DNA from: Candidatus Bathyarchaeota archaeon
GTDB lineage: Archaea > Thermoproteota > Bathyarchaeia > 40CM-2-53-6
Direction of reading: 5' to 3'
DNA: 64,000 nt
Assembly (NCBI GenBank): GCA_963726255.1
Contig: CAVSBL010000002.1
Location: forward strand, 192,001 to 256,000
Under the pieces are notes generated by a model. The model did no database searches. It was not told the origin of the DNA and was given only the letters and a program-made list of their open reading frames with translations. Positions within the stretch are counted from its first letter, which is position 1, and every line of letters begins with the position of its first letter. Below are positions 5,996 through 64,000 of the stretch, in pieces. The position numbers and the translations under genes were made by a program.

Positions 5996-6090
5996 CACCC
6001 GCGACCTTTGGATTATTGGCGACGGGAAAAGGGTACTTCTCTTTCATTCTAATTGTGTATTCGCACCTTTAGACCTGTGTGGGAGTATTA

Positions 6091-6275
6091 TGGTGCGGGG
6101 AGTGGGATTCGAACCCACGAAGGCCTACGCCACGGGATAGCTCACCCGCGCACGTGAACCCTCGCGCCGAGCGCGAATCTTGAGTGTAGCGCGCGTGGCC
6201 AAGCGTAGGCATTAGCATGCCGCACGCGTTCGCAGCACGCGACCCGCCCATTTGACCTGGCTCTGGTATCCCCGC
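6091..6275 (-). tRNA. tRNA-Leu(CAA) with two introns (30/31: 6186-6242; 37/38: 6139-6178), encoded CCA
   Basis: Removing both introns yields an 88-nt tRNA GCGGGGA...CGGGA-CTCAAGA-TCCCG, long variable arm, GTTCGAAT T-loop, ...CCCCGCACCA; both introns have BHB-type junctions. Confidence 0.92.
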
Positions 6276-10759: not shown

Positions 10760-11085
10760 GGCGATGGCAGCATCCCCGTTGAATTGGCATTCCACGCCCT
10801 AGCGGTTTCTCCAAAACCTCCTAAACTCTGTTATCCCATCAGCGCCTTGGCGCTCGCCTTACGACTGCTCTCTTCCGAGCCTCATCGGGTTCGACGATGA
10901 AGAGATGAATTCTTCCCTTCAGAAGGATTCTCCCCTGCGCTGGCCCGGTGGGGCAGAGTCTCATTGTTGGCTTTGGAAGCCTACTAAGGTTAGGAGATGA
11001 CTCTCCCTCGGGTTAACGGGTCCCCGCGTATAGCCGATTTCGGGTCACAGGGAACGGCTGGCTCCCCGATCCTCCTGCCATCGCC
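10760..11085 (-). ncRNA. ffs: Archaeal signal recognition particle (7S) RNA
   Basis: About 326 nt; ends pair (GGCGATGGCAG / CTGCCATCGCC); helix-8 signature GAACCCGATGAGGCTCGGAAGAGAGCAG; TATA upstream and T-tract downstream. Confidence 0.92.
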
Positions 11086-33972: not shown

Positions 33973-34099
33973 GGAGTCGGCAGCGGTCCGGGGCTCGCAT
34001 GGCCTTTCGGAACATACTACTACCCGAATCGCCTGAGAGATTCACTTCCGTGTTCGGAATGGGAACGGGTCCTAGCCCTCAGCTATGGCCGCCAACTCC
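33973..34099 (-). rRNA. rrf: 5S rRNA (stand-alone)
   Basis: GGCGGCCATAGC...CCCGTTCCCATTCCGAACACGGAAGT...; paired ends GGAGTTGGCGG/CTGCCGACTCC; TTTATTTA upstream. Confidence 0.95.
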
Positions 34100-56718: not shown

Positions 56719-57141
56719 GTGCCGGAGTTCGTAGAAATCAGCATTAAGTGTCACAAGCTCGCGAAAGGATTTGGAGAAGGAGAAGCTTTGGTCTCCAAGG
56801 ATCCTATCTGCTTCTACCTAGTCGAGCCGAAGACCGGTATCGTTAGAGAGAAGGGGCATCAACTCGAGGGCAAGTCGATCGCGGGTAAAGTGCTAGTGTT
56901 TCCGACGGGAAAGGCGAGTTCCGCAGTCCAAATGGACGGGCTCGTCAAGTTGTTAATCTATAAGAACGCACCTCGGGCCATGATTGTAACGGATGTGGAG
57001 CCAGTTCTCTTGGGAAGCGCGGTTCTGACTAAGATCCCGCTCGTTGACAAACTGGAAAGGAACCCATTCGAGGCCATTAGCTCCGGGGACTTCGTGAAAG
57101 TGGACGCTGAGAAGGGTTCAGTTATCGTGACAAAAGGCTAA
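56719..57141 (+). CDS. Aconitase X small (swivel) subunit, DUF126
   Basis: GEGEALVS..PI.F, GIV.E.GH.L.GKSIAGKVLVFP.GKASS. Confidence 0.9.
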   Translation: MPEFVEISIKCHKLAKGFGEGEALVSKDPICFYLVEPKTGIVREKGHQLEGKSIAGKVLVFPTGKASSAVQMDGLVKLLIYKNAPRAMIVTDVEPVLLGSAVLTKIPLVDKLERNPFEAISSGDFVKVDAEKGSVIVTKG

Positions 57142-57487
57142 TCGAGAATTTCTCGCAAACCAAATGTTAGGACAGGCCATCAGCCCTACTGTTTCTTTGT
57201 GGACTTGATGGTGAGGCCGAAGGCTTTTAGTCCTCTTTTGAAGGCAGAGCGGTCGGCTCGCACCGCGCGTCTTCCGTGCGGGAGACAGCTCAAACCTTGT
57301 GCAAGAGTCCTCATACTTGGATCAAAAAACAATTCTTCATTGGCCCAAGTCATCCTGTTCATACCCGGATTTCTCCACCATCATTCGGGATGAGTAACAT
57401 AGTTTGCTCCTAAACAGGCGACACCCCCATCCCTCAGGGCTTGAGGGCACGGAGAAGATTTTCAGCACATGTTATACACGTGCAGGA

Positions 57488-57507
57488 TTGGTGGGGCCGA
57501 AGGGACT
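57488..57507 (-). repeat. 20-bp direct repeat copy 2 (tRNA 3'-end-like att site)
   Basis: Identical to 51200-51219; partial third copy TGGTGAGGCCGAAGG at 57209-57223. Confidence 0.85.
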
Positions 57508-58065
57508 CACTGCGTATACGAAGTGGGTGTTACTCAATTGGGCCGTATTTCCTATGAGCAAGGCATGTCACTCCTTGAGCGACGATATACGCGGTCTTCC
57601 TCTTAGTGTTTGCGCGGCTGTCGGGCAATGTTGAGTTCAAATTGGTCTGCTCGCACCACTAGACCCACACACACAATTACTTGAACGACCGCGGGAGTTC
57701 AAATTCGGACGCCCGCGCCAAAATACCGCACACAAATGCTGCAACATGCTTGACAATCAAAGAGTGATCGGGCGCTAGCGACTTCGAAGGCCAGGATAGT
57801 TCTTGATTGCGAAAACCGAAAGTTGGTCGTCGCGAAGGCTTTCCAGTTCCCACGGTAAATTCGTCATTGGTGTTGCGGTTCCGAACGCTACCCATGATGG
57901 AGCAGCAGTTCCTCCAGTAGTTCTCTGAACGGCGTTGGCGACATTCTTTCCGAGCTTCTTCAAGATAAGTCAGATCGTCTGGCTGAGTGGTCGCCCCCAG
58001 CAGGAAAGTTTGAATCTGCAGATCACTGCTTAGTTAGACCCTGGAAGTACAGAGAGGAGAGCACG

Positions 58066-58410
58066 ATGAGCAACGAACAGGTGGCACCTGAGACGAAAGG
58101 TGTTACGGTGAAGTTACTTGCAACGGTTGACCTTGGCCCTGAGATCGAGGGCATGGCAGGGCGCCAACTTCGAATGCGTATGGTGACCATCGAGCCTGGA
58201 GGCGTCATCGGCCCGATTCACGACCATAAAGACAGACCAGGCACCGTCTACATACTGCAAGGAACGATCACTGACCATCGAAATGGAGTCGCTACGGACT
58301 ATGGGCCGGGAGTGGGCTGGCCCGAGGATAGGAACACCACACACTGGCTTGAGAACAGAGGAACGATTCCGGCGGTGGAGATCTCGGTCGACATAGTCAG
58401 GCAAGAGTAA
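58066..58410 (+). CDS. Cupin-domain protein (cargo)
   Basis: VTIEPGG..GP.HDH..RPG.VYILQG, HWLEN; GGAG SD. Confidence 0.88.
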   Translation: MSNEQVAPETKGVTVKLLATVDLGPEIEGMAGRQLRMRMVTIEPGGVIGPIHDHKDRPGTVYILQGTITDHRNGVATDYGPGVGWPEDRNTTHWLENRGTIPAVEISVDIVRQE

Positions 58411-58523
58411 GCTCAGGCCCTCTGGATCATACTACTGGGACTCACACTACTCACCGATCTTCGGATGGATGTTCACTGCCTGTCCGGGACTACTGAACTT
58501 TGCAGTTGTCGTTCGTCGTTCAT

Positions 58524-58567
58524 GAAATTGTGTGTGTGGGGTATGCTGGTGCGCACACACACTTTTC
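58524..58567. repeat. Back-to-back element ends separated by a target-like 15-mer
   Basis: GAAATTGTGTGTGTG-GGGTATGCTGGTGCG-CACACACACTTTTC. Confidence 0.75.
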
Positions 58568-58596
58568 TAACGAAGGACGTACAACGACAGTTCAAG

Positions 58597-59874
58597 TCAT
58601 TTCTTTACTAGCCCGTACCTGCTCTTGAAGTCGAATACGTTCACTACATAACTCGGACTGACAGCTTTCGCAATCCGTTCACTAGTCGAATCAGTTCTGA
58701 GTTCGAGCATCTTTTCTCCTATATTATAGCCGAGAGCCGCGAGAAGACCACCTACTGCGCCTATAGGACCAGCCGCAACTGTTCCCAATACTGCTATTCC
58801 AATCGTTATCCCTCCACGAATGAATCCTGTCTTTGATCCAATTGAGTCTGCTTCCTCCCATAATTTGTCCAAGATGTCTCCGAGTTTCTTCCCATTGGAT
58901 AGAATGTCCGAGTATTCTTCACTCTTGACTGCTTGGAGAAGGGAGGTTGATACTCCGTACAAATCGGTCTCACTGAACTTGTCACACATAGCTCTGCAAG
59001 CTTCATAGCTTGTAGGATAGGGAGCGAGCTTTTCCATGAGAAACTTGCCAATCTCTGCTAGGTTTGGGCTTGGAGCTTGTGAAACAAGAAGAGCCATGCC
59101 ATCTGGTGTCTTCATTGCAAGTTGTTCATGGCTTACGTTGTGAATTGCTCCAAAAATATCGAATGTTGGCTCCAATATCAATTGTACGCACAAGTTCGTA
59201 ACGTCCGCCAATTCTCCGAATTCGTCGTAGACCAATCTATCGCGAATGAATTCTTTCAAGTCGCGATAGCCCAAAAGCTCTAGCGCTGCGTATGTATCTG
59301 CAAATTTCTCCCACGCGGTTTTTGTTATATCGACTGCAGGGCCATATTTCCGCATGTAACGAGGGTCGAGATTTCGTCTGTTTGCGGTTGGGTATATGCG
59401 AATTCTGCAGAGAGTATCATATTCAATCAAAGCATCCCTATATCTTACCAGATCTGATGCGGAAAACTCTTCCTTATGAATTACGCCGTACCACTTTCGC
59501 GGCTTCAGGTCTAGAACCGGATCAAGGAAGTCCAATCCCGCATATTCCTCCGGGTCGCCGTTTAGAACAAATGCAACTCGCCCGGTATCCTTGGCAAAGT
59601 CTGCTAGACGGTCGACATCAGATGCATCAAACCCATGATATTTACTGAAATCGCCTTCTGAGTATGGCGCTACCGGAATTAGAAGGGTTCCAAAGAGCGG
59701 GATTTGCGGCCAAATACTCTCGCAGATCGCGCTCCATGCTATTGGTTCCCGAAGTTTAGGGTATCTCTGCGTGTAGTATGCTTTCATTTCAAATGGATCC
59801 ATTGATGACTTACTTAGTCGTGCGATTTCTTCACGTTCTTTGGCTGAGTAGTCTAACAACGATTCTTTATCCAA
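58597..59874 (-). CDS. Hypothetical protein with C-terminal Gly-rich hydrophobic hairpin (cargo)
   Basis: 425-aa ORF; GGITIGIAVLGTVAAGPIGAVGGLLAALG near C-terminus; family not recognised. Confidence 0.75.
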   Translation of the reverse strand: MDKESLLDYSAKEREEIARLSKSSMDPFEMKAYYTQRYPKLREPIAWSAICESIWPQIPLFGTLLIPVAPYSEGDFSKYHGFDASDVDRLADFAKDTGRVAFVLNGDPEEYAGLDFLDPVLDLKPRKWYGVIHKEEFSASDLVRYRDALIEYDTLCRIRIYPTANRRNLDPRYMRKYGPAVDITKTAWEKFADTYAALELLGYRDLKEFIRDRLVYDEFGELADVTNLCVQLILEPTFDIFGAIHNVSHEQLAMKTPDGMALLVSQAPSPNLAEIGKFLMEKLAPYPTSYEACRAMCDKFSETDLYGVSTSLLQAVKSEEYSDILSNGKKLGDILDKLWEEADSIGSKTGFIRGGITIGIAVLGTVAAGPIGAVGGLLAALGYNIGEKMLELRTDSTSERIAKAVSPSYVVNVFDFKSRYGLVKK

Positions 59875-60057
59875 GAGGTTGAGCCATTAGCCTCATCGAC
59901 TCAACACACTAAATAACTATTTTTCGTCGTCGGTATCCTAGTCCGCACGCCACGATGACGGTTCGATTTCTGTCGCTCGCACCATTGATACCACACACAC
60001 TAAATGACGGCAACTCAAATTACGCTACTCGCACCATTGGAATAGCCTGAAGGCGAA

Positions 60058-60350
60058 ATGAGCAATGAAGGAGAGCTAGTGGCCCAACGCATGTCAAAGA
60101 ATCAAGAATCAATTGATAATGCTTTTCTATTCTTGTTGACTTCGTTGACTTTGCTATTCGGAGTCTTGAACGACGCTGTTGACGGATTGCGAGCTGTTCT
60201 TCTTCAGATCCCGCTAATTATCTCAGGTTTCTTTTTTCCATTCTATATTGGCTACGTGCGAGGAGTAATAGACCCCGGTTCCAACGTAGAAAGGGTTCGA
60301 GGATGGATATTCTTTACATTTGGAGTTGCCACCTACGCATGGATGTTCAC
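60058..60350 (+). pseudogene. Probably truncated membrane-protein gene
   Basis: About 95 codons with three TM-like segments, then the frame runs into GC-rich hairpins and element-end repeats; 3' boundary approximate. Confidence 0.5.
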
Positions 60351-60805
60351 GGACTTCCGGGTTGTATGTTTCCGGGCCCGATTTCTGCTATGCGACACAT
60401 GCGGCCGGGTCCGGCGAAGGACCCTTGGCGGGTCTGACTCCGGAGGCCGGGCCGGAGAGGGGTTGTTAGGGGACACTTCCCCTAAACAGCAAACACCTAC
60501 ACCAACCGTTTCAAAGTGTGTGTGGATCTCTTGGTGCGACCGGCGCAATTTGAACCGCAGGGTCAAACGTAATTGTGTGTGTGCGCACCACTAGACCGGG
60601 GGTATAACATAGGGGCGGTTTTGGGGTGTCCACGTGGATGGGTTGGTGGGGACGTGGAAGTCCACGTGTACGCGAGATAATGAGACCTGCTTGACTACCA
60701 ATTGAATCGCTGTTACCAAAGTTTCGAAAAGCATGGAACACTACAGGTATGTTGATCTTTAGCCAAACCTCTAGGTGAGCTATAGAAAAGAACCTGTTCA
60801 GTCCC

Positions 60806-61198
60806 ATGGCGGCTTTGGATATGAGGAAGTCAACGATAATCTACGCCCTTCTATGGTTCCTAACTATTGTAGCGTTTTCTGTTCCATGGTACACAGTTGG
60901 TGGGCACACGTTTACCGGCTGGAATTTTGTCATTCCATTCTCAGCCAGCTATCTGATAGGCATCCTTCTGGGTCTCATAGTCCTGATTACTAAGCGATGG
61001 GCGTTTGGTCTTACCATTGTTGCAGGAATCTTGATGATACTGGGAATAGTAGGTGCGGGCATTGGCGGTGGAATAAGCGAAGCACTTAGCGGAGTAAGCG
61101 GTCAGACCACCACGGCCCAAGGTGGAATAGGTTTTGCTTTCGTGATTAGTTTGGTATACCTTGTCGGCGGAGCTGTTCTAGGTAAGCGAATGGAGTAG
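60806..61198 (+). CDS. Small multi-TM hypothetical membrane protein
   Basis: 130 aa, four hydrophobic segments, PWYT motif. Confidence 0.7.
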   Translation: MAALDMRKSTIIYALLWFLTIVAFSVPWYTVGGHTFTGWNFVIPFSASYLIGILLGLIVLITKRWAFGLTIVAGILMILGIVGAGIGGGISEALSGVSGQTTTAQGGIGFAFVISLVYLVGGAVLGKRME

Positions 61199-61341
61199 CG
61201 ACTCGACAAACAACGGAAATAGGTTTAGCATGAGACATGGGGATTAAGGGTCCTTCCGCTGTCGTCGGATCTATTGGTGAGGTCCACGGGTACAACCGAG
61301 CAGAAATTCGTCGACTATCAAGTTGACTCTATGAATAGATG

Positions 61342-64000
61342 TTAGCCGCGTGGAGTCGAAAATTTCTCGTCATCCGATAATTCAAGCTTAATCATTTCAT
61401 CGATATCATGTATGCAAGAGTCAGCAATTACTCGGACAGTTTCTGAAGATACCTGATCATCCTTGATTTTCTGAAAGATCGCCTTACGTCGGACCAGCTC
61501 AGGCGGAGGTTCACCGGGTCTCGCCGTATATGCATGAGGCGGATGCGTCTTTCGGTAGAACATTGACTCAACTTGATTTCTTAATCCAGCTGAGATGCCC
61601 TCAGATCCAACCCTCGCGAAGATATTCGAATTATCTTCTTTGAGTTCTAGAAATTCACATGCGGTTAACGCGTTCTCGATTCTATGAGCGTTCAGCTGTC
61701 TATCGATGTATGTCGTAAGACTCGCCTGCATTTGAAGTCGATTCGGGTCTGCGAAGGGTAGGAAGAGATTGCGTAGGCACATTTGGTAGATTGCGTCTTT
61801 GCTGTACCATGCTATGACTGCGTCCATTAGTTTGTCGAATGCCTCGACTGATTTCGTCAAACTCGCTACTGCGTCGATTCCATCTCCAGGTATTGGCTCA
61901 TACTGGTAATCTTTCATGCGAATTGTTGAGAGGCGTTCCTGAAGGAGAAAGATTACTGACTGTATATCAGAGCACACAAACGAGATGATTCGTTGAGAAT
62001 CGTAGTCTAAGTTGGGCATCTCAACTAGTCGGTTCAGTAATGCCCTTCGCAGTAGTACAAGCTCATGTGAAGGAAGTGCCCCAATGATGTTTCCCTTCCG
62101 CAGGAGAACCAAAGACACAGCGAAGCTTAGCTGCTGATAATCATCCTCCATAGAAACTCCAAGACGCAATAGCTTAGTGAGTAAGTACACACTCTGAAAC
62201 TTGTCGAATAAGAAATCGAGATAGCTAATTACTTGATATTTGGTGCCGGAGCTTCCGAACGTCAGTAATTTGTGGAGCCAAAGGTATAAACTGAAAGAGG
62301 AAATTGTGTTCTTGGTAGTCGATTTAGTTCTGTTGTCGTCAATACGACTGAACTTGTCAAAGACGGCCGCAACGATCGTTTGATACCCTCCTTTGTCAAG
62401 TAATTCTATGAATCTACTATAGGTTCGAGACCTTGTAAATTGAAACCTGCATGTACATGCTAAAAAGGCCTGCACTTTTGACTCGGAAGTTCTCGGAAGT
62501 TCTGAAATAGTCTCCTCAGCCATCATTCGAAGGAAGCGCCCATCGAGTTCTGCAAGAGCTGCTTGCATTTCGTCCTTGAAGCGAGTCGGGGTGTCGGCCC
62601 AAAGTGCATTGTTGCTTCTAATTTCCGCGAACACTGGTCTCTGTTGATGAACCCATGAGGTTAGTATCGGAGCGGTCACACGGTTGGGCGGCTCCCGCAG
62701 CGATTTGTCCAATGACTTAAGAAATCGCAAAACGTCGCCAGGTGTAGGATACTTCTCTGGCAAAGTGGAGGTTATTTTGTCGAATTCTTCCGGTAAGAAT
62801 ACTCGTCTAGACGTGAATGACTGAATGAACCATTTCCAACGCCCATCCTGTGGTGCGTTTTTCCTCAGATTCTCGAAGCTCTCTGAGATGTAATATGGCG
62901 ATAGGTAGTGACTGAACATCAAATATTCAGAAGATCTAGGCATCGCTTCCAAGAACTTCTCAGTTTCCTCTGTACCAGGAGTGCTCTGTGCCCACCAAGT
63001 CAAGAACAGGTTCTCAATTTTGTTCAGAACTGCAAAATCCATATCTGATCTGATTGTGTTTCCTATTAGTCGAGTTACATGTCTCCTTTCTTGAGCAATT
63101 CTTGATTCAAGTGGCAAGGCACTCTCACTAACCCTTTGCAATCGAGTCTTTCCGAGAACTTCAGCAACATCTAGTGCTGCAATTCTTGCCTTTGGTGAAG
63201 AATGTTCGATCATAAGCGAGAGAACTCTAAGGGCTTCGTCTCTAATCGCTGTCACCTCGGCGGTTTGTGAAAGAATCTTTTCTCCGAACGTCACCCTGAG
63301 TGTCCTGGATTCTGAATATTCATGGGAACCAGCGAGAACCTCCGAAAGAGCTGGAAAGAGCAGCTCGACTTGTGTGTCCGATCCGTTTATCCAAGTTTCT
63401 AGGATCGACAGCGCCTCGCAGATCTGAGATGCGCTGTTCTGCAAAGGAGAGACGCATGAACGTATCAATGATTTTGTCTTGTAGTTGTCGTATCTGCCTG
63501 GAATGTTCTTCCTGTGAAGTAGATTGATGATGTCAAGTATTGTTGATCGAGATTGACGTGTTGAGATTAATTGCGCAATGACAGGTCCGTAGTCATCCGT
63601 TGATAGTGGCAGACGAGGGTCGTCGTCATCTCTTTCTATGTAACATCGAAGAAGGCGTGCACATTCGGTCGGAACGATCGGGGTTATGCTAGGAATCGCG
63701 TTGAGGACTCCTCGCATAGATCGGTGAGGTCCTTCGTTCGGATGTAATGACCAATGTAAAACATGTCCCGCCAATACTCGTCTAAGGCTTGGAACTTCTG
63801 CGTATTTAGCGGCTGATGCTAAGTTGTTCAGTGCGTTCTCAGGGGCGGTTTGAAGCCAGGGGTCAACCAACGAAATCAGGTTTTCTACATTCATGTTCTG
63901 AATCTGTCGCAAAAGGTACAGGTCGCCCTTCATGTCAGGGTTGAACCGGACCGTGTCGCCAATTTCTCTCAGTATTCCTGCTCTGATCATTCGATTCAAT
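61342..64000 (-). CDS. Large helical hypothetical protein (5'-truncated by window edge)
   Basis: >885 aa open frame reaching the window end; no catalytic motif visible in this part. Confidence 0.75.
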   Translation of the reverse strand, partial: LNRMIRAGILREIGDTVRFNPDMKGDLYLLRQIQNMNVENLISLVDPWLQTAPENALNNLASAAKYAEVPSLRRVLAGHVLHWSLHPNEGPHRSMRGVLNAIPSITPIVPTECARLLRCYIERDDDDPRLPLSTDDYGPVIAQLISTRQSRSTILDIINLLHRKNIPGRYDNYKTKSLIRSCVSPLQNSASQICEALSILETWINGSDTQVELLFPALSEVLAGSHEYSESRTLRVTFGEKILSQTAEVTAIRDEALRVLSLMIEHSSPKARIAALDVAEVLGKTRLQRVSESALPLESRIAQERRHVTRLIGNTIRSDMDFAVLNKIENLFLTWWAQSTPGTEETEKFLEAMPRSSEYLMFSHYLSPYYISESFENLRKNAPQDGRWKWFIQSFTSRRVFLPEEFDKITSTLPEKYPTPGDVLRFLKSLDKSLREPPNRVTAPILTSWVHQQRPVFAEIRSNNALWADTPTRFKDEMQAALAELDGRFLRMMAEETISELPRTSESKVQAFLACTCRFQFTRSRTYSRFIELLDKGGYQTIVAAVFDKFSRIDDNRTKSTTKNTISSFSLYLWLHKLLTFGSSGTKYQVISYLDFLFDKFQSVYLLTKLLRLGVSMEDDYQQLSFAVSLVLLRKGNIIGALPSHELVLLRRALLNRLVEMPNLDYDSQRIISFVCSDIQSVIFLLQERLSTIRMKDYQYEPIPGDGIDAVASLTKSVEAFDKLMDAVIAWYSKDAIYQMCLRNLFLPFADPNRLQMQASLTTYIDRQLNAHRIENALTACEFLELKEDNSNIFARVGSEGISAGLRNQVESMFYRKTHPPHAYTARPGEPPPELVRRKAIFQKIKDDQVSSETVRVIADSCIHDIDEMIKLELSDDEKFSTPRG

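What the first reader, a model, noticed from the sequence alone, without database searches (positions are those of the whole stretch)
57633..60556. Element ends carry their own tRNA-3'-mimic landing pads, allowing nested, self-renewing cassette accretion
Seen: five non-tRNA sequences keep exact tRNA spacing of T-loop(7)-N5-acceptor(7)-discriminator-CCA. They are TTCAAAT-TGGTC-TGCTCGC-A-CCA (ends 57658), TTCAAAT-TCGGA-CGCCCGC-G-CCA (ends 57720), TTCGATT-TCTGT-CGCTCGC-A-CCA (ends 59984), CTCAAAT-TACGC-TACTCGC-A-CCA (ends 60036) and, on the minus strand, TTCAAAT-TGCGC-CGGTCGC-A-CCA (60554-60532). The N5 and stem pairing drift while T-loop, CGCACCA and spacing are kept. Three of them lie 13-17 nt inside a TIR or CACACACAC end. 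At three pads a CACACACAC begins exactly 14 nt after the first C of CGCACCA (57652/57666, 59978/59992, 60538/60524). Inference: each inserted unit delivers fresh target sites, giving integron-like gene capture built on tRNA-mimic targets. I do not know of a described system with this architecture.
Basis: partly seen in the sequence, partly recalled or inferred. Interest (0 to 1): 0.88.

Follow-up and report, generated by a model that had tools for sequence, protein, structure and literature searches.

The report
Casposon landing sites and gene cassettes
The tRNA-end look-alikes are the landing sites of casposons, transposons moved by a Cas1-type enzyme; here they mark enzyme-less gene cassettes stacked inside one another, a pattern widespread in Bathyarchaeia.

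Summary
All five pads, their spacing and the three "+14 nt CACACACAC" offsets are exact (6 pad matches in the window against 0.01 expected). None is a tRNA.

The pads are casposon targets. T-loop box to acceptor acts as "leader". [quoted passage not shown] CACACACAC/GTGTGTGTG are element termini. In same-genus genomes, two Cas1-encoding elements (16.3 kb and ~11 kb) sit at such pads with exact 14-bp TSDs. One enzyme's best solved relative is the Methanosarcina mazei casposase (E 3.9e-74), whose published target is a 14-bp TSD starting CGCA at a tRNA 3' end.

The window's own genome has no Cas1. Its elements are non-autonomous: a 2,918-bp composite (57666-60583) with 15/15 TIRs and an exact TSD, holding cargo cassettes, a solo long TIR and four inner pads.

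Pads do sit inside element ends (49 of 126 occupied pads in other MAGs, against 3% of random positions). Cas1-less cargo elements with exact TSDs recur. I found neither feature in print.

Verdict: new variant of a known kind.

The parts
57636..57651 (+). Pad 1, 'leader' part: T-loop box TTCAAAT, N5, and the start of the acceptor-like box.
   Evidence: Same layout as the pad beside the Cas1 element in L061.
57652..57665 (+). Left copy of the 14-bp TSD CGCACCACTAGACC of the composite element.
   Evidence: The identical 14-mer recurs at 60584-60597.
57666..60583 (+). Composite Cas1-less element 'E1', 2,918 bp, with 15/15 terminal inverted repeats CACACACACAATTAC / GTAATTGTGTGTGTG.
   Evidence: I6, 100% complementary; exact TSD pair. 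No Cas1 in the genome.
57698..57727 (+). Pad 2 (variant CGCGCCA) plus its 14-mer. It starts 32 nt inside E1's left terminus and is followed by a decayed GCACACA.
57666..58539 (+). Cupin cassette. Its ends are 26-nt inverted repeats, 92% complementary. Its flanking 14-mers are inverted and not identical.
   Evidence: I3. Contigs of two other metagenome runs cover most of 57666-58553 at 95% or better and stop at its termini (table 8).
58066..58410 (+). Cargo gene: Cupin_2 protein, 114 aa.
   Evidence: PF07883, E 1e-9. 97-98% DNA identity in two other genus genomes, at other loci.
58540..58553 (-). 14-mer CGCACCAGCATACC lying between two element termini: GTGTGTGTG on one side, CCACACACAC on the other.
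58554..59958 (+). Cassette that starts with CACACACAC and carries a 425-aa ORF (58597-59874, minus strand) with no Pfam match. Its right end is decayed.
59962..59991 (+). Pad 3 (TTCGATT...CGCACCA) plus the 14-mer CGCACCATTGATAC. It is occupied: CACACACAC starts at 59992.
59992..60043 (+). Element left end CACACACACTAAATGACGGCAA, then pad 4 (60014-60036) and its 14-mer CGCACCATTGGAAT. No terminus follows, so this pad is unoccupied.
60340..60524 (-). Solo long casposon TIR (CACACACACTTTGAAACGGTTGG...), homologous over about 160-190 nt to both TIRs of a Cas1-encoding element in a same-genus genome. Its inner limit is approximate.
60525..60554 (-). Pad 5 (60532-60554) and its 14-mer CGCACCAAGAGATC (60525-60538). 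The pad starts 29 nt inside E1's right terminus and is occupied by the solo TIR.
60584..60597 (+). Right copy of the TSD CGCACCACTAGACC.
60598..60687 (+). Terminus of a second element type (GGGGGTATAACATAGGGG...). In another genus genome the same ~90 nt follow a pad plus 14-mer about 6 kb from a Cas1 gene. No partner end was found in this genome.
   Evidence: with the Cas1 position.
57371..57430 (+). Fragment related to the inner part of the long TIR. It also matches two other places in this genome.
   Evidence: (D6).
6091..6113 (-). 3' end of a tRNA-like gene (ARAGORN with introns: 6091-6275). Its CGCACCA+N7 is followed by CCCACACA and an inverted 14-mer-like sequence.
   Evidence: Rfam does not call it at gathering score.

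Best explanation
The pads are integration targets of a casposon family. Casposons are transposons moved by a Cas1-type integrase, the casposase.

The anatomy reads as follows. The stretch from the T-loop box to the acceptor-like box (often ACGACGG-TTCAAAT-N5-YGCY) acts as the 'leader'. The next 14 bp, CGCACCA plus 7, are cut with a stagger and end up duplicated on both sides of the insert. The insert's ends are CACACACAC...GTGTGTGTG.

The enzyme copies a real target. Genuine tRNA genes of these archaea encode CCA and some end in CGCACCA. Many elements carry a non-tRNA copy of this target 15-35 nt inside their own ends, or about 200 nt inside in the long-TIR type. Later elements therefore land inside earlier ones or beside them. 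This builds islands of one- to three-gene cassettes.

The window's genome has lost the casposase. What is seen at 57.6-60.7 kb is a non-autonomous composite (57666-60583, exact TSD, 15/15 TIR). It holds cargo cassettes, a solo long TIR and four inner pads, three of them occupied. It lies in tandem with the end of a second element type.

Shown: the anatomy, the TSDs, the association with Cas1 in relatives, use of real tRNA genes, and one empty-versus-filled site. Inferred: that casposases supplied in trans moved the Cas1-less cassettes, and that the inner pads serve as working targets rather than being relics.
For: (1) Two Cas1-encoding elements in same-genus genomes have both junctions intact. 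In L061, a 16.3-kb element has pad-CGCACCATTAGACC|CACACACACACACTTTGAAACGG on one side and ...GTGTGTGTG|CGCACCATTAGACC on the other, with Cas1 inside. In L065, an ~11-kb element with termini CCGCCCCCGCCGCC has the exact TSD CGCACCAGCATACC at a pad.

(2) The L061 Cas1 matches PDB 6opm, deposited as a Cas1, at E 3.9e-74 over residues 4-402. CRISPR Cas1 proteins score E 5.9e-24 or weaker. That 6opm is the M. mazei casposase is my link to PMC6977970, not a tool result.

(3) Published passages on M. mazei casposons describe a 14-bp TSD beginning with conserved CGCA and overlapping the last 4 bp of tRNA-Leu, with about 30 bp of upstream tRNA sequence needed for targeting (PMC6977970). They also describe tandem copies sharing one TSD and solo TIRs (PMC4779613).

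(4) Window 60524 down to about 60340 aligns with both TIRs of the L061 element.

(5) Duplications. In this genome, linked left and right junctions carry identical 14-mers in 7 of 37 pairs, against 26 of 1062 unlinked pairs. In other MAGs, 12 of 129 occupied pads have the identical 14-mer downstream within the 8-kb locus. Nine of those 12 follow a GTGTG-type or GAGAG-type end, and the N7 differs between them.

(6) Real tRNA targets. 6 of 132 occupied pads are 3' ends of ARAGORN tRNA genes. The tRNA at C2:925550-925644 is empty in this genome, while a 94-95% identical relative has GTGTGTGTGTGTG|CGCACCACTTCTTT|flank.

(7) Pads inside ends. A nested insertion with an exact TSD.

(8) Cargo is diverse and includes no transposase.
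Against: This genome has no Cas1 at all. The Pfam search found none, and tblastn with five genus casposases gave a best E of 0.28. Nothing here can move on its own, and no movement was observed.

Only 5 of 23 left junctions have an identical 14-mer at the nearest right junction.

Several units, the cupin cassette among them, are flanked by inverted, non-identical 14-mers. Simple insertion does not produce that. Later inversion or recombination has to be assumed and was not shown.

In two relatives only the cupin ORF plus about 30 nt is conserved, not the whole cassette. Genes may therefore also move between cassettes by another route.

11 of 23 genus genomes show no Cas1 match, and at least five of those still carry pad-sized matches.

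No PolB, a defining casposon gene, lies near either Cas1 gene of G015.

The casposases of this group are untested.
Confidence: 0.85

Rival explanations
1. The pads and 14-bp direct repeats are attL/attR remnants of islands integrated by tyrosine recombinases into tRNA genes.
For: Integration into tRNA 3' ends with short direct repeats is typical of archaeal integrases; short att sites, median 17 bp, are reported in passages of PMC6563490. PF00589 matches occur in 19 of 23 genus genomes.
Against: This genome has no PF00589 match yet holds 71 sites. The repeated 14-mer differs from site to site and follows the target: tRNA-specific N7 at real tRNA genes, and many different exact pairs. An att core would have to be carried by the element. 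The inserts have inverted termini directly abutting the repeat. Two complete elements with these junctions encode Cas1, and no integrase was seen among the ORFs tested.
Confidence: 0.03
2. Another, unrecognised transposase moves the CACACACAC-ended cassettes, and the Cas1 elements merely share the same target islands.
For: Half of the genus genomes, this one included, have cassettes but no Cas1. Most cassettes share only about 9 terminal bases with the Cas1 elements.
Against: No multi-copy transposase-like ORF family exists in this genome. All cargo tested is non-transposase. A 14-bp duplication starting with CGCA next to a tRNA end is the casposase signature. The abstract of PMC6614799 states that only about five terminal residues of the end are critical for integration by the A. 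boonei casposase, so short shared termini suffice. I ran only two transposase-type family searches on this genome (Cas1 and PF00589), so this rival is not excluded by search.
Confidence: 0.06
3. The motif is not mobile DNA but a regulatory or RNA-structural signal that flanks genes, for example the GTGTGTGTG-N14-CACACACAC hairpin or a tRNA-like RNA processing site.
For: Sites lie between genes. The G-C form can fold as a 9-bp hairpin. Several pads lie upstream of same-strand ORFs.
Against: There is an empty and a filled state of the same tRNA flank in close relatives. Exact 14-bp duplications bound variable inserts. The same cupin gene sits at other loci in other genomes. Pads show no conserved pairing and no Rfam match. 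Gene orientation relative to the pads varies.
Confidence: 0.02

Closest known systems
Family 2 casposons of Methanosarcina mazei (casposase structure PDB 6opm)
   Same: The enzyme family is the same: best PDB match, E 3.9e-74. Both make a 14-bp TSD that begins with CGCA at the last acceptor bases plus discriminator of a tRNA gene, and both need upstream tRNA sequence. Both show tandem copies sharing one TSD, solo TIRs, and intergenic sites that resemble the tRNA target. An HTH/HEAT-repeat protein gene lies next to one of the Cas1 genes, and a family 2 core gene of that description is mentioned in a passage of PMC4779613.
   Different: The host is Bathyarchaeia, where tRNA genes encode CCA, so the TSD reads CGCA-CCA-N7. 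The termini are (CA)n. No PolB lies near the two G015 Cas1 genes. A copy of the target sits inside the element ends. Cas1-less elements carrying ordinary genes are many. I did not find these last two features in the passages I read.
Aciduliprofundum boonei casposon AciBoo-C1 and thaumarchaeal casposons
   Same: Site-specific insertion at a tRNA 3' end (tRNA-Pro), leader plus TSD logic, and only the last few end residues needed (abstract of PMC6614799; section 11 of PMC6563490).
   Different: Those are single large PolB-encoding elements. Thaumarchaeal family 1 casposons use protein-coding genes and a 13-bp TSD (PMC8464041).
Integrons (IntI, attI, attC cassettes)
   Same: Arrays of small, mostly one-gene cassettes with unrelated cargo, delimited by a repeated recombination signal and growing at a defined site.
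   Different: There is no tyrosine recombinase and no attC-type hairpin signal. Cassettes have inverted termini and a 14-bp duplication. Gene orientation is mixed. The enzyme is of the Cas1 family.
MITEs and mobile insertion cassettes (non-autonomous TIR elements moved in trans)
   Same: TIR plus TSD, no transposase, dependence on an enzyme encoded elsewhere, passenger genes as in mobile insertion cassettes. This comparison is from general knowledge, not from a call.
   Different: The inferred enzyme is a casposase and the target is site-specific. The interiors are unique rather than a repeated family. A non-autonomous casposon is not in the papers found.
CRISPR arrays (leader-repeat-spacer)
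   Same: A leader-like pad is followed by identical short repeats (14 bp) separating inserts. One example is pad + 4 x 14-mer around three inserts of about 0.5-0.9 kb at C2:1357360-1359489. The integrase is a Cas1 homologue.
   Different: The inserts are gene-sized with their own termini, the repeat is 14 bp, and there is no evidence of transcription into guide RNAs or of Cas2 or effector genes.

Membership tests
Casposon (Cas1-mobilised transposon) | Encodes a Cas1-family casposase. | tested here: not met
   For the window's elements and the whole genome there is no PF01867 match and no tblastn hit better than E 0.28. The feature is met in relatives' elements with the same ends and targets. 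The window's units are therefore non-autonomous derivatives, not casposons proper.
Casposon (Cas1-mobilised transposon) | Terminal inverted repeats. | tested here: met
   E1 has 15/15 TIRs (I6). The cupin cassette has 26 nt at 92% (I3). The long TIR is shared with the L061 element.
Casposon (Cas1-mobilised transposon) | Target-site duplication of about 14-15 bp. | tested here: met
   The exact 14-mer occurs at 57652-57665 and 60584-60597. There are further exact pairs in this genome, in L061 and L065 and in 12 of 129 pads of other MAGs.
Casposon (Cas1-mobilised transposon) | Family B DNA polymerase in the element ('self-synthesising'). | tested here: not met
   None of the 10 largest ORFs of the L061 element is a PolB. 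The PF00136 and PF03175 matches in G015 lie on another contig than its two Cas1 genes. One protein-primed PolB match lies 11 kb from a Cas1 gene in G018; I did not follow it up.
Family 2-type casposon target | Insertion at a tRNA 3' end with the TSD starting at CGCA and dependence on upstream tRNA sequence. | tested here: met
   The register is identical. Real tRNA genes are used in 6 of 132 pads and in the empty/filled pair. Dependence on the leader is inferred from conservation only.
Casposon (Cas1-mobilised transposon) | Demonstrated integrase activity or mobility. | not testable with these tools
   Only comparative evidence is available: one empty/filled site and the same cassette in other contexts.
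Integron | IntI tyrosine recombinase with attI, and attC-bounded cassettes. | tested here: not met
   No PF00589 match in the genome. The cassette boundaries are TIR plus 14-bp TSD, not attC.
tRNA gene or tRNA pseudogene | Cloverleaf detectable by tRNA finders; T-stem pairing. | tested here: not met
   ARAGORN finds 0 tRNA genes in the window. Rfam finds nothing in 57400-60800 at E<=1. The N5 stretch does not pair with the bases before the T-loop.

The most novel reading that the evidence does not exclude
Bathyarchaeia host a casposase-driven gene-cassette system. Cas1-less mini-casposons carrying ordinary metabolic, transport and defence genes are moved in trans. Each brings a working copy of the tRNA-mimic target in its ends, so that insertion sites renew themselves and cassettes pile up into leader-repeat-insert arrays. 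That would be an archaeal counterpart of integrons built on a Cas1 enzyme. It would also be a living intermediate between casposon tandem insertion and a CRISPR array.
Probability: 0.45. Interest if true: 0.82.

Novelty: new variant of a known kind. Interest (0 to 1): 0.64.

Why it matters
Casposons are the proposed ancestors of the CRISPR adaptation machinery, but few are known and they are usually rare, large and solitary.

In this archaeal class the same chemistry seems to have produced hundreds of short, enzyme-less, gene-carrying inserts. They sit in arrays of identical 14-bp repeats behind a leader-like sequence, and the elements carry the target along with them.

If these are mobilised in trans, casposases are a major route of gene flux in Bathyarchaeia. 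They would explain the hypervariable islands there; the 17.5-kb island in this window is replaced by 4.3 kb in a 97% identical relative.

The step from 'transposon with a TSD' to 'repeat array that stores inserts' would also become testable with natural substrates.

For annotation, these pads should not be read as tRNA fragments or integrase att sites.

Tried and rejected
I first guessed that the host was a Nitrososphaera-like thaumarchaeon, from GC content and intron-rich tRNA genes. That was wrong. The collection scan places the motif almost only in records titled Bathyarchaeia/Bathyarchaeota.

Looking for a repeated cargo or an autonomous copy in this genome found nothing. blastn of 57001-61500 against the genome gave only pad-sized hits. 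Clustering of all ORFs of 100 aa or more gave no multi-copy transposase-like family. The recurrent families near sites are TBP, KaiC-like and other paralogues, not enzymes of mobility.

A first generic script for pairing termini missed the window's own pair because of offset handling. I replaced it with the CGCACCA-anchored pairing.

The idea that N5 pairs with N7 (GGTCT/AGACC in pad 1) does not hold in the other pads (read).

Retro-insertion, meaning mRNA-sized conserved units primed from a CCA end, was considered because only the ORF plus about 30 nt is conserved in two relatives. I dropped it. Contigs of two other runs cover nearly the whole cassette up to its termini, and the junctions fit a TSD. 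I did not search for a reverse transcriptase.

Synteny gave no clean empty site for the whole island. Three relatives lose synteny at about 57150 and carry no sites in the next 10 kb.

L062 showed no inverted repeat within 16 kb, so that Cas1 element's far end was not found. L063 and L064 have rearranged or incomplete junctions.

Of the laid contigs, I do not use the listed joints. Their sides are 20-35 letters at 90% likeness, in repeats. I draw no conclusion from parts without cover, from depth, or from the habitat labels of the small-share runs.

Literature searches. Searches found no paper in the held library that has 'casposon' together with Bathyarchaeia, or that describes non-autonomous casposons. 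PMC11697101 has no passage on Cas1 or transposons. Supplements were closed and may hold TIR and TSD tables that bear on this, for example those of PMC4779613. Subscription papers were not searched.

I ran no structure prediction and no complex prediction.


Full report

Yes. The five pads are at 57636-57658, 57698-57720, 59962-59984 and 60014-60036 on the plus strand, and at 60532-60554 on the minus strand. Each has the layout T-loop heptamer, N5, 7-nt acceptor-like box, one base, CCA.

The pattern YTCRAWT-N9-CGCRCCA occurs 6 times in the window against 0.01 expected from shuffles. The sixth match is the 3' end of a tRNA-like gene at 6091-6113(-).

None of the pads is a tRNA. ARAGORN finds none in the window. 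Rfam finds nothing in 57400-60800 at E<=1. The bases before the T-loop do not pair with N5.

**2. The pads belong to a genome-wide family with four junction forms.**

The window is C2:192001-256000 of a 2.42-Mb assembly. That genome has 29 matches to the pad pattern and 71 sites built on the core CGCACCA+N7. They come in four forms:
- T-loop pad + core + CACACACAC;
- GTGTGTGTG + core + CACACACAC;
- GTGTGTGTG + core + other sequence;
- pad + core + other sequence.

This is what a transposon with CACACACAC...GTGTGTGTG ends and a 14-bp TSD leaves behind: left junctions, tandem junctions, right junctions and empty targets.

In the window the 14-mer CGCACCACTAGACC stands at 57652-57665 and again at 60584-60597. 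The 2,918 bp between them start and end with a perfect 15-nt inverted repeat.

Elsewhere in the genome there are further exact pairs and tandem sets, each with its own N7:
- CCATGCC, three copies;
- GCTGACC, three copies, plus one copy with a single mismatch;
- CTAGACC, two copies.

Linked junction pairs share the 14-mer in 7 of 37 cases, against 26 of 1062 unlinked pairs. But only 5 of 23 nearest partners are identical, so much of the family is decayed or rearranged.

**3. The cargo.**

The insides of the units are not repeated in the genome. They hold unrelated small genes:
- In the window: a Cupin_2 protein, a 425-aa protein with no family, and a small membrane-like ORF.
- In the densest cluster (C2:438-458 kb): an oxidoreductase, MFS transporters, a subtilase, hemerythrin, MarC, a hydrolase and others.
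- In the arrays: glyoxalase and a SnoaL-like protein.

None of the ORFs tested is a transposase or integrase. The genome has no PF00589 match and no multi-copy ORF family of the kind an active IS would give.

**4. The enzyme.**

This genome has no Cas1. tblastn with five genus casposases gave a best E of 0.28. But 12 of the 23 genomes of the genus have Cas1 matches, one of them 11 matches. Those matches lie among pad matches.

Two Cas1-encoding elements have both junctions intact:
- In L061, a pad (TTCAAATTCGAGCGCTCGCACCA) and the 14-mer CGCACCATTAGACC are followed by CACACACACACACTTTGAAACGG. 16.3 kb further on...CCGTTTCAAAGTGTGTGTGTGTGTG is followed by the same 14-mer. Inside are a 407-aa Cas1, an AIPR protein, a DNA methylase and a DndB-like protein.
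- In L065, an ~11-kb element with termini CCGCCCCCGCCGCC lies at a pad with the exact TSD CGCACCAGCATACC. It holds Cas1 next to a TIR-domain protein.

The L061 Cas1 matches PDB 6opm at E 3.9e-74 over nearly its whole length. CRISPR Cas1 proteins score E 5.9e-24 or weaker. That 6opm is the M. mazei casposase is my link to the paper below, not a tool result.

Passages of that structure paper (PMC6977970) state that M. mazei casposons make a 14-bp TSD with a conserved 5'-CGCA. The TSD overlaps the last 4 bp of tRNA-Leu, and about 30 bp of upstream tRNA sequence are needed for targeted integration.

In the genome studied here, 16 of the 17 tRNA genes found by Rfam are followed by CCA. The same register therefore reads CGC (acceptor) + A (discriminator) + CCA + 7.

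**5. Real tRNA genes are used too.**

Among 132 occupied pads in other MAG records, 6 coincide with the 3' end of an ARAGORN tRNA gene (Gln, Arg, Leu twice, Gly, Pro). These mostly have proper T-stems and arbitrary N7.

The tRNA at C2:925550-925644 is followed directly by its flank in this genome. In a relative that is 94-95% identical there, the same flank is preceded by ...AAAAAGTGTGTGTGTGTG|CGCACCACTTCTTT. This is an empty and a filled state of one site, with homology starting exactly at the C of CGCACCA. The left junction of that insertion was not on the contig, so the duplication itself is not seen there.

**6. Anatomy of the window region (57.6-60.7 kb).**

- Pad 1 and the TSD come first.
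- E1 (57666-60583) begins with CACACACACAATTAC. 32 nt from its terminus comes pad 2 (variant CGCGCCA), followed by a decayed CA end.
- The cupin cassette runs to 58539. Its ends are 26-nt inverted repeats.
- At 58540-58553 lies an inverted 14-mer, directly followed by CACACACAC of the next cassette, which carries the 425-aa ORF.
- Pad 3 (59962) is occupied at 59992 by an end that itself carries pad 4. Pad 4 starts 22 nt from that terminus and is unoccupied.
- From 60524 down to about 60340 on the minus strand lies a solo copy of the long TIR of the L061-type casposon. It is inserted at pad 5.
- Pad 5 starts 29 nt inside E1's right terminus.
- After the right TSD copy, a second type of terminus begins (60598-60687). 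In another genus genome the same ~90 nt follow a pad plus 14-mer about 6 kb from a Cas1 gene that is 43% identical to the L061 one.

The whole lies in a variable island. A 97% identical relative follows the window up to 57196 and resumes at C2:266665, with 4.3 kb of other sequence in place of 17.5 kb.

**7. Do element ends carry their own landing pads?**

Statistically, yes.
- In this genome, 4 of 40 CA-type termini have a full pad starting 20-32 nt from the terminus, against 0.035% of random positions. 6 of 40 have at least the T-loop heptamer. Many others show a decayed ACGACGG... remnant (read).
- In 113 stretches from other MAGs, 49 of 126 occupied pads have a CA-type terminus 15-50 nt upstream on the same strand, against 3% of random positions. 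16 have the whole 14-mer + terminus within 100 nt, against 1.4%.
- The long-TIR Cas1 element carries a pad about 200 nt inside one end and a degenerate copy at the other.
- A clean nested case is at C2:871039-872743. An end of about 50 nt carries a pad. A 1,627-bp insert with the exact TSD CGCACCACCATGCC follows, and then the host element continues.

Whether the inner pads are kept because they serve the element, or are only relics of how the ends arose, is open.

One lead: the box ACGACGG precedes the T-loop in many pads (GACGG in 32 of 130). CGACG-type pentamers are enriched 3.6-fold in the first 100 nt of inserts and are repeated in the L065 end. This suggests one DNA-binding specificity for both ends and target.

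**8. Cas1-less elements with exact duplications are general.**

In other MAGs, 12 of 129 occupied pads have the identical 14-mer further on within the 8-kb locus. Nine of these 12 follow a GTGTG-type (or, once, GAGAG) end, and they bound inserts of 0.7-3.4 kb. Ten ORFs from eight of those nine inserts were tested (the ninth has only a 102-aa ORF, which I did not test). They are a KaiC-TPR protein, a methyltransferase, a multicopper oxidase, two glycosyltransferases, DUF4287, an MFS transporter and three with no match. None is Cas1.

The cupin gene of the window is 97-98% identical in two genus genomes whose core genes are 76-83% identical, and it sits at other loci there. Contigs of two runs from other studies cover most of 57666-58553 at 95% or better and stop at the termini (table 8).

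**9. Host and range.**

The output lists 80 of them. Nearly all are in records titled Candidatus Bathyarchaeia or Bathyarchaeota. There is also one Hadesarchaea record, two contigs of an unclassified 'archaeon' MAG and two contigs labelled as bacterial MAGs. I take the host to be a Bathyarchaeia archaeon by inference. My first guess, Thaumarchaeota, was wrong.

**10. What is known and what is not.**

Known: casposons, their tRNA-end targets, the 14-bp TSD starting CGCA, tandem copies and solo TIRs (passages).

Not found in the held library:
- casposons in Bathyarchaeia;
- non-autonomous casposons carrying ordinary genes;
- a target copy inside the casposon ends.

Supplements and subscription journals were not available to me.

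PolB, part of the usual definition of a casposon, is absent from the 10 largest ORFs of the L061 element and from the neighbourhood of both G015 Cas1 genes. One possible protein-primed PolB lies 11 kb from a Cas1 gene in G018.

**11. What speaks against the reading.**

- No casposase exists in this genome, and no movement was seen.
- Most junction partners are not identical.
- Several units have inverted, unlike 14-mers on their two sides, which needs later rearrangement that I did not reconstruct.
- Conservation of the cupin gene alone in two relatives hints at gene exchange between cassettes by another route.
- These casposases are untested.

**12. Verdict.**

The thing is a known kind (casposon target sites, TSDs, termini and solo TIRs) in a new variant: a self-carried target mimic and abundant enzyme-less gene cassettes forming leader-repeat-insert arrays in Bathyarchaeia. 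Confidence in the casposon reading is 0.85. Interest is 0.64.

Noticed in passing
Rfam does not call it at gathering score. Its end CGCACCATAATACT is followed by CCCACACA, then by an inverted 14-mer-like CGCACCTTTAGACC (6062-6075, plus strand), and then by AATACACAATTA. This looks like a casposon-type scar at a real or former tRNA gene.
   Followed up: partly
whole genome (G000); for example C2:662893-662970 and C2:925550-925644: The tRNA genes encode CCA: 16 of the 17 Rfam matches are followed by CCA. Most contain introns: ARAGORN finds 7 tRNAs without introns allowed and 35 with. This explains why the casposon TSD here includes CCA.
   Followed up: partly
window 57196 onward (to C2:266665, beyond the window): A relative that is 97% identical upstream has 4.3 kb of unrelated, site-free sequence where this genome has 17.5 kb of casposon debris and cargo. 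Three more distant relatives lose synteny at about 57150, just after the AcnX genes.
   Followed up: partly
window 60598-60687; L062:2365-2439: There is a second terminus type, GGGGGTATAACATAGGGG..GTCCACGTG. In another genus genome it lies next to a pad and about 6 kb from a Cas1 gene only 43% identical to the CA-type ones. A third type, CCGCCCCCGCCGCC, bounds the Cas1 element in L065 and also occurs at C2:455252. All three types use the same pad + CGCACCA-N7 target.
   Followed up: partly
L061:2554-18372; L065:8395-9159: The Cas1 elements of relatives carry defence-type cargo (AIPR, DndB-like, an N6/N4 DNA methylase, a TIR-domain protein). No PolB was found among the ORFs tested.
   Followed up: partly
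C2:911503-913137 and C2:977172-978710; C2:121096-122215 and paralogues: There are gene-sized duplications inside the genome: aromatic amino acid lyase at 90% DNA identity, a 124-aa protein family at 90-96%, and TBP paralogues at 73-84%. Their identity ends within about 15-130 nt of the ORF. Several lie beside pads, for example the pad at C2:913256-913307.
   Followed up: partly
contigs C1 and C5 against C2:2128403-2139091: The two small contigs are near-copies (at least 75% protein identity across 11 ORF families) of one 11-kb stretch of C2. They are probably strain variants, which fits the 9.34% contamination figure of the assembly.
   Followed up: no
window 10764-11081 and 33975-34096: Archaeal SRP RNA (163.6 bits) and 5S rRNA (83.4 bits), both on the minus strand. 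These are ordinary genes, useful as landmarks.
   Followed up: no
L063:1925-2005: Two pads face each other with only CACACACA between their 14-mers (pad, 14-mer, CACACACA, inverted 14-mer, inverted pad). The arrangement at window 6062-6113 is similar, though only its tRNA side has a pad. Simple insertion does not explain it. It may be a footprint or an inversion product.
   Followed up: no
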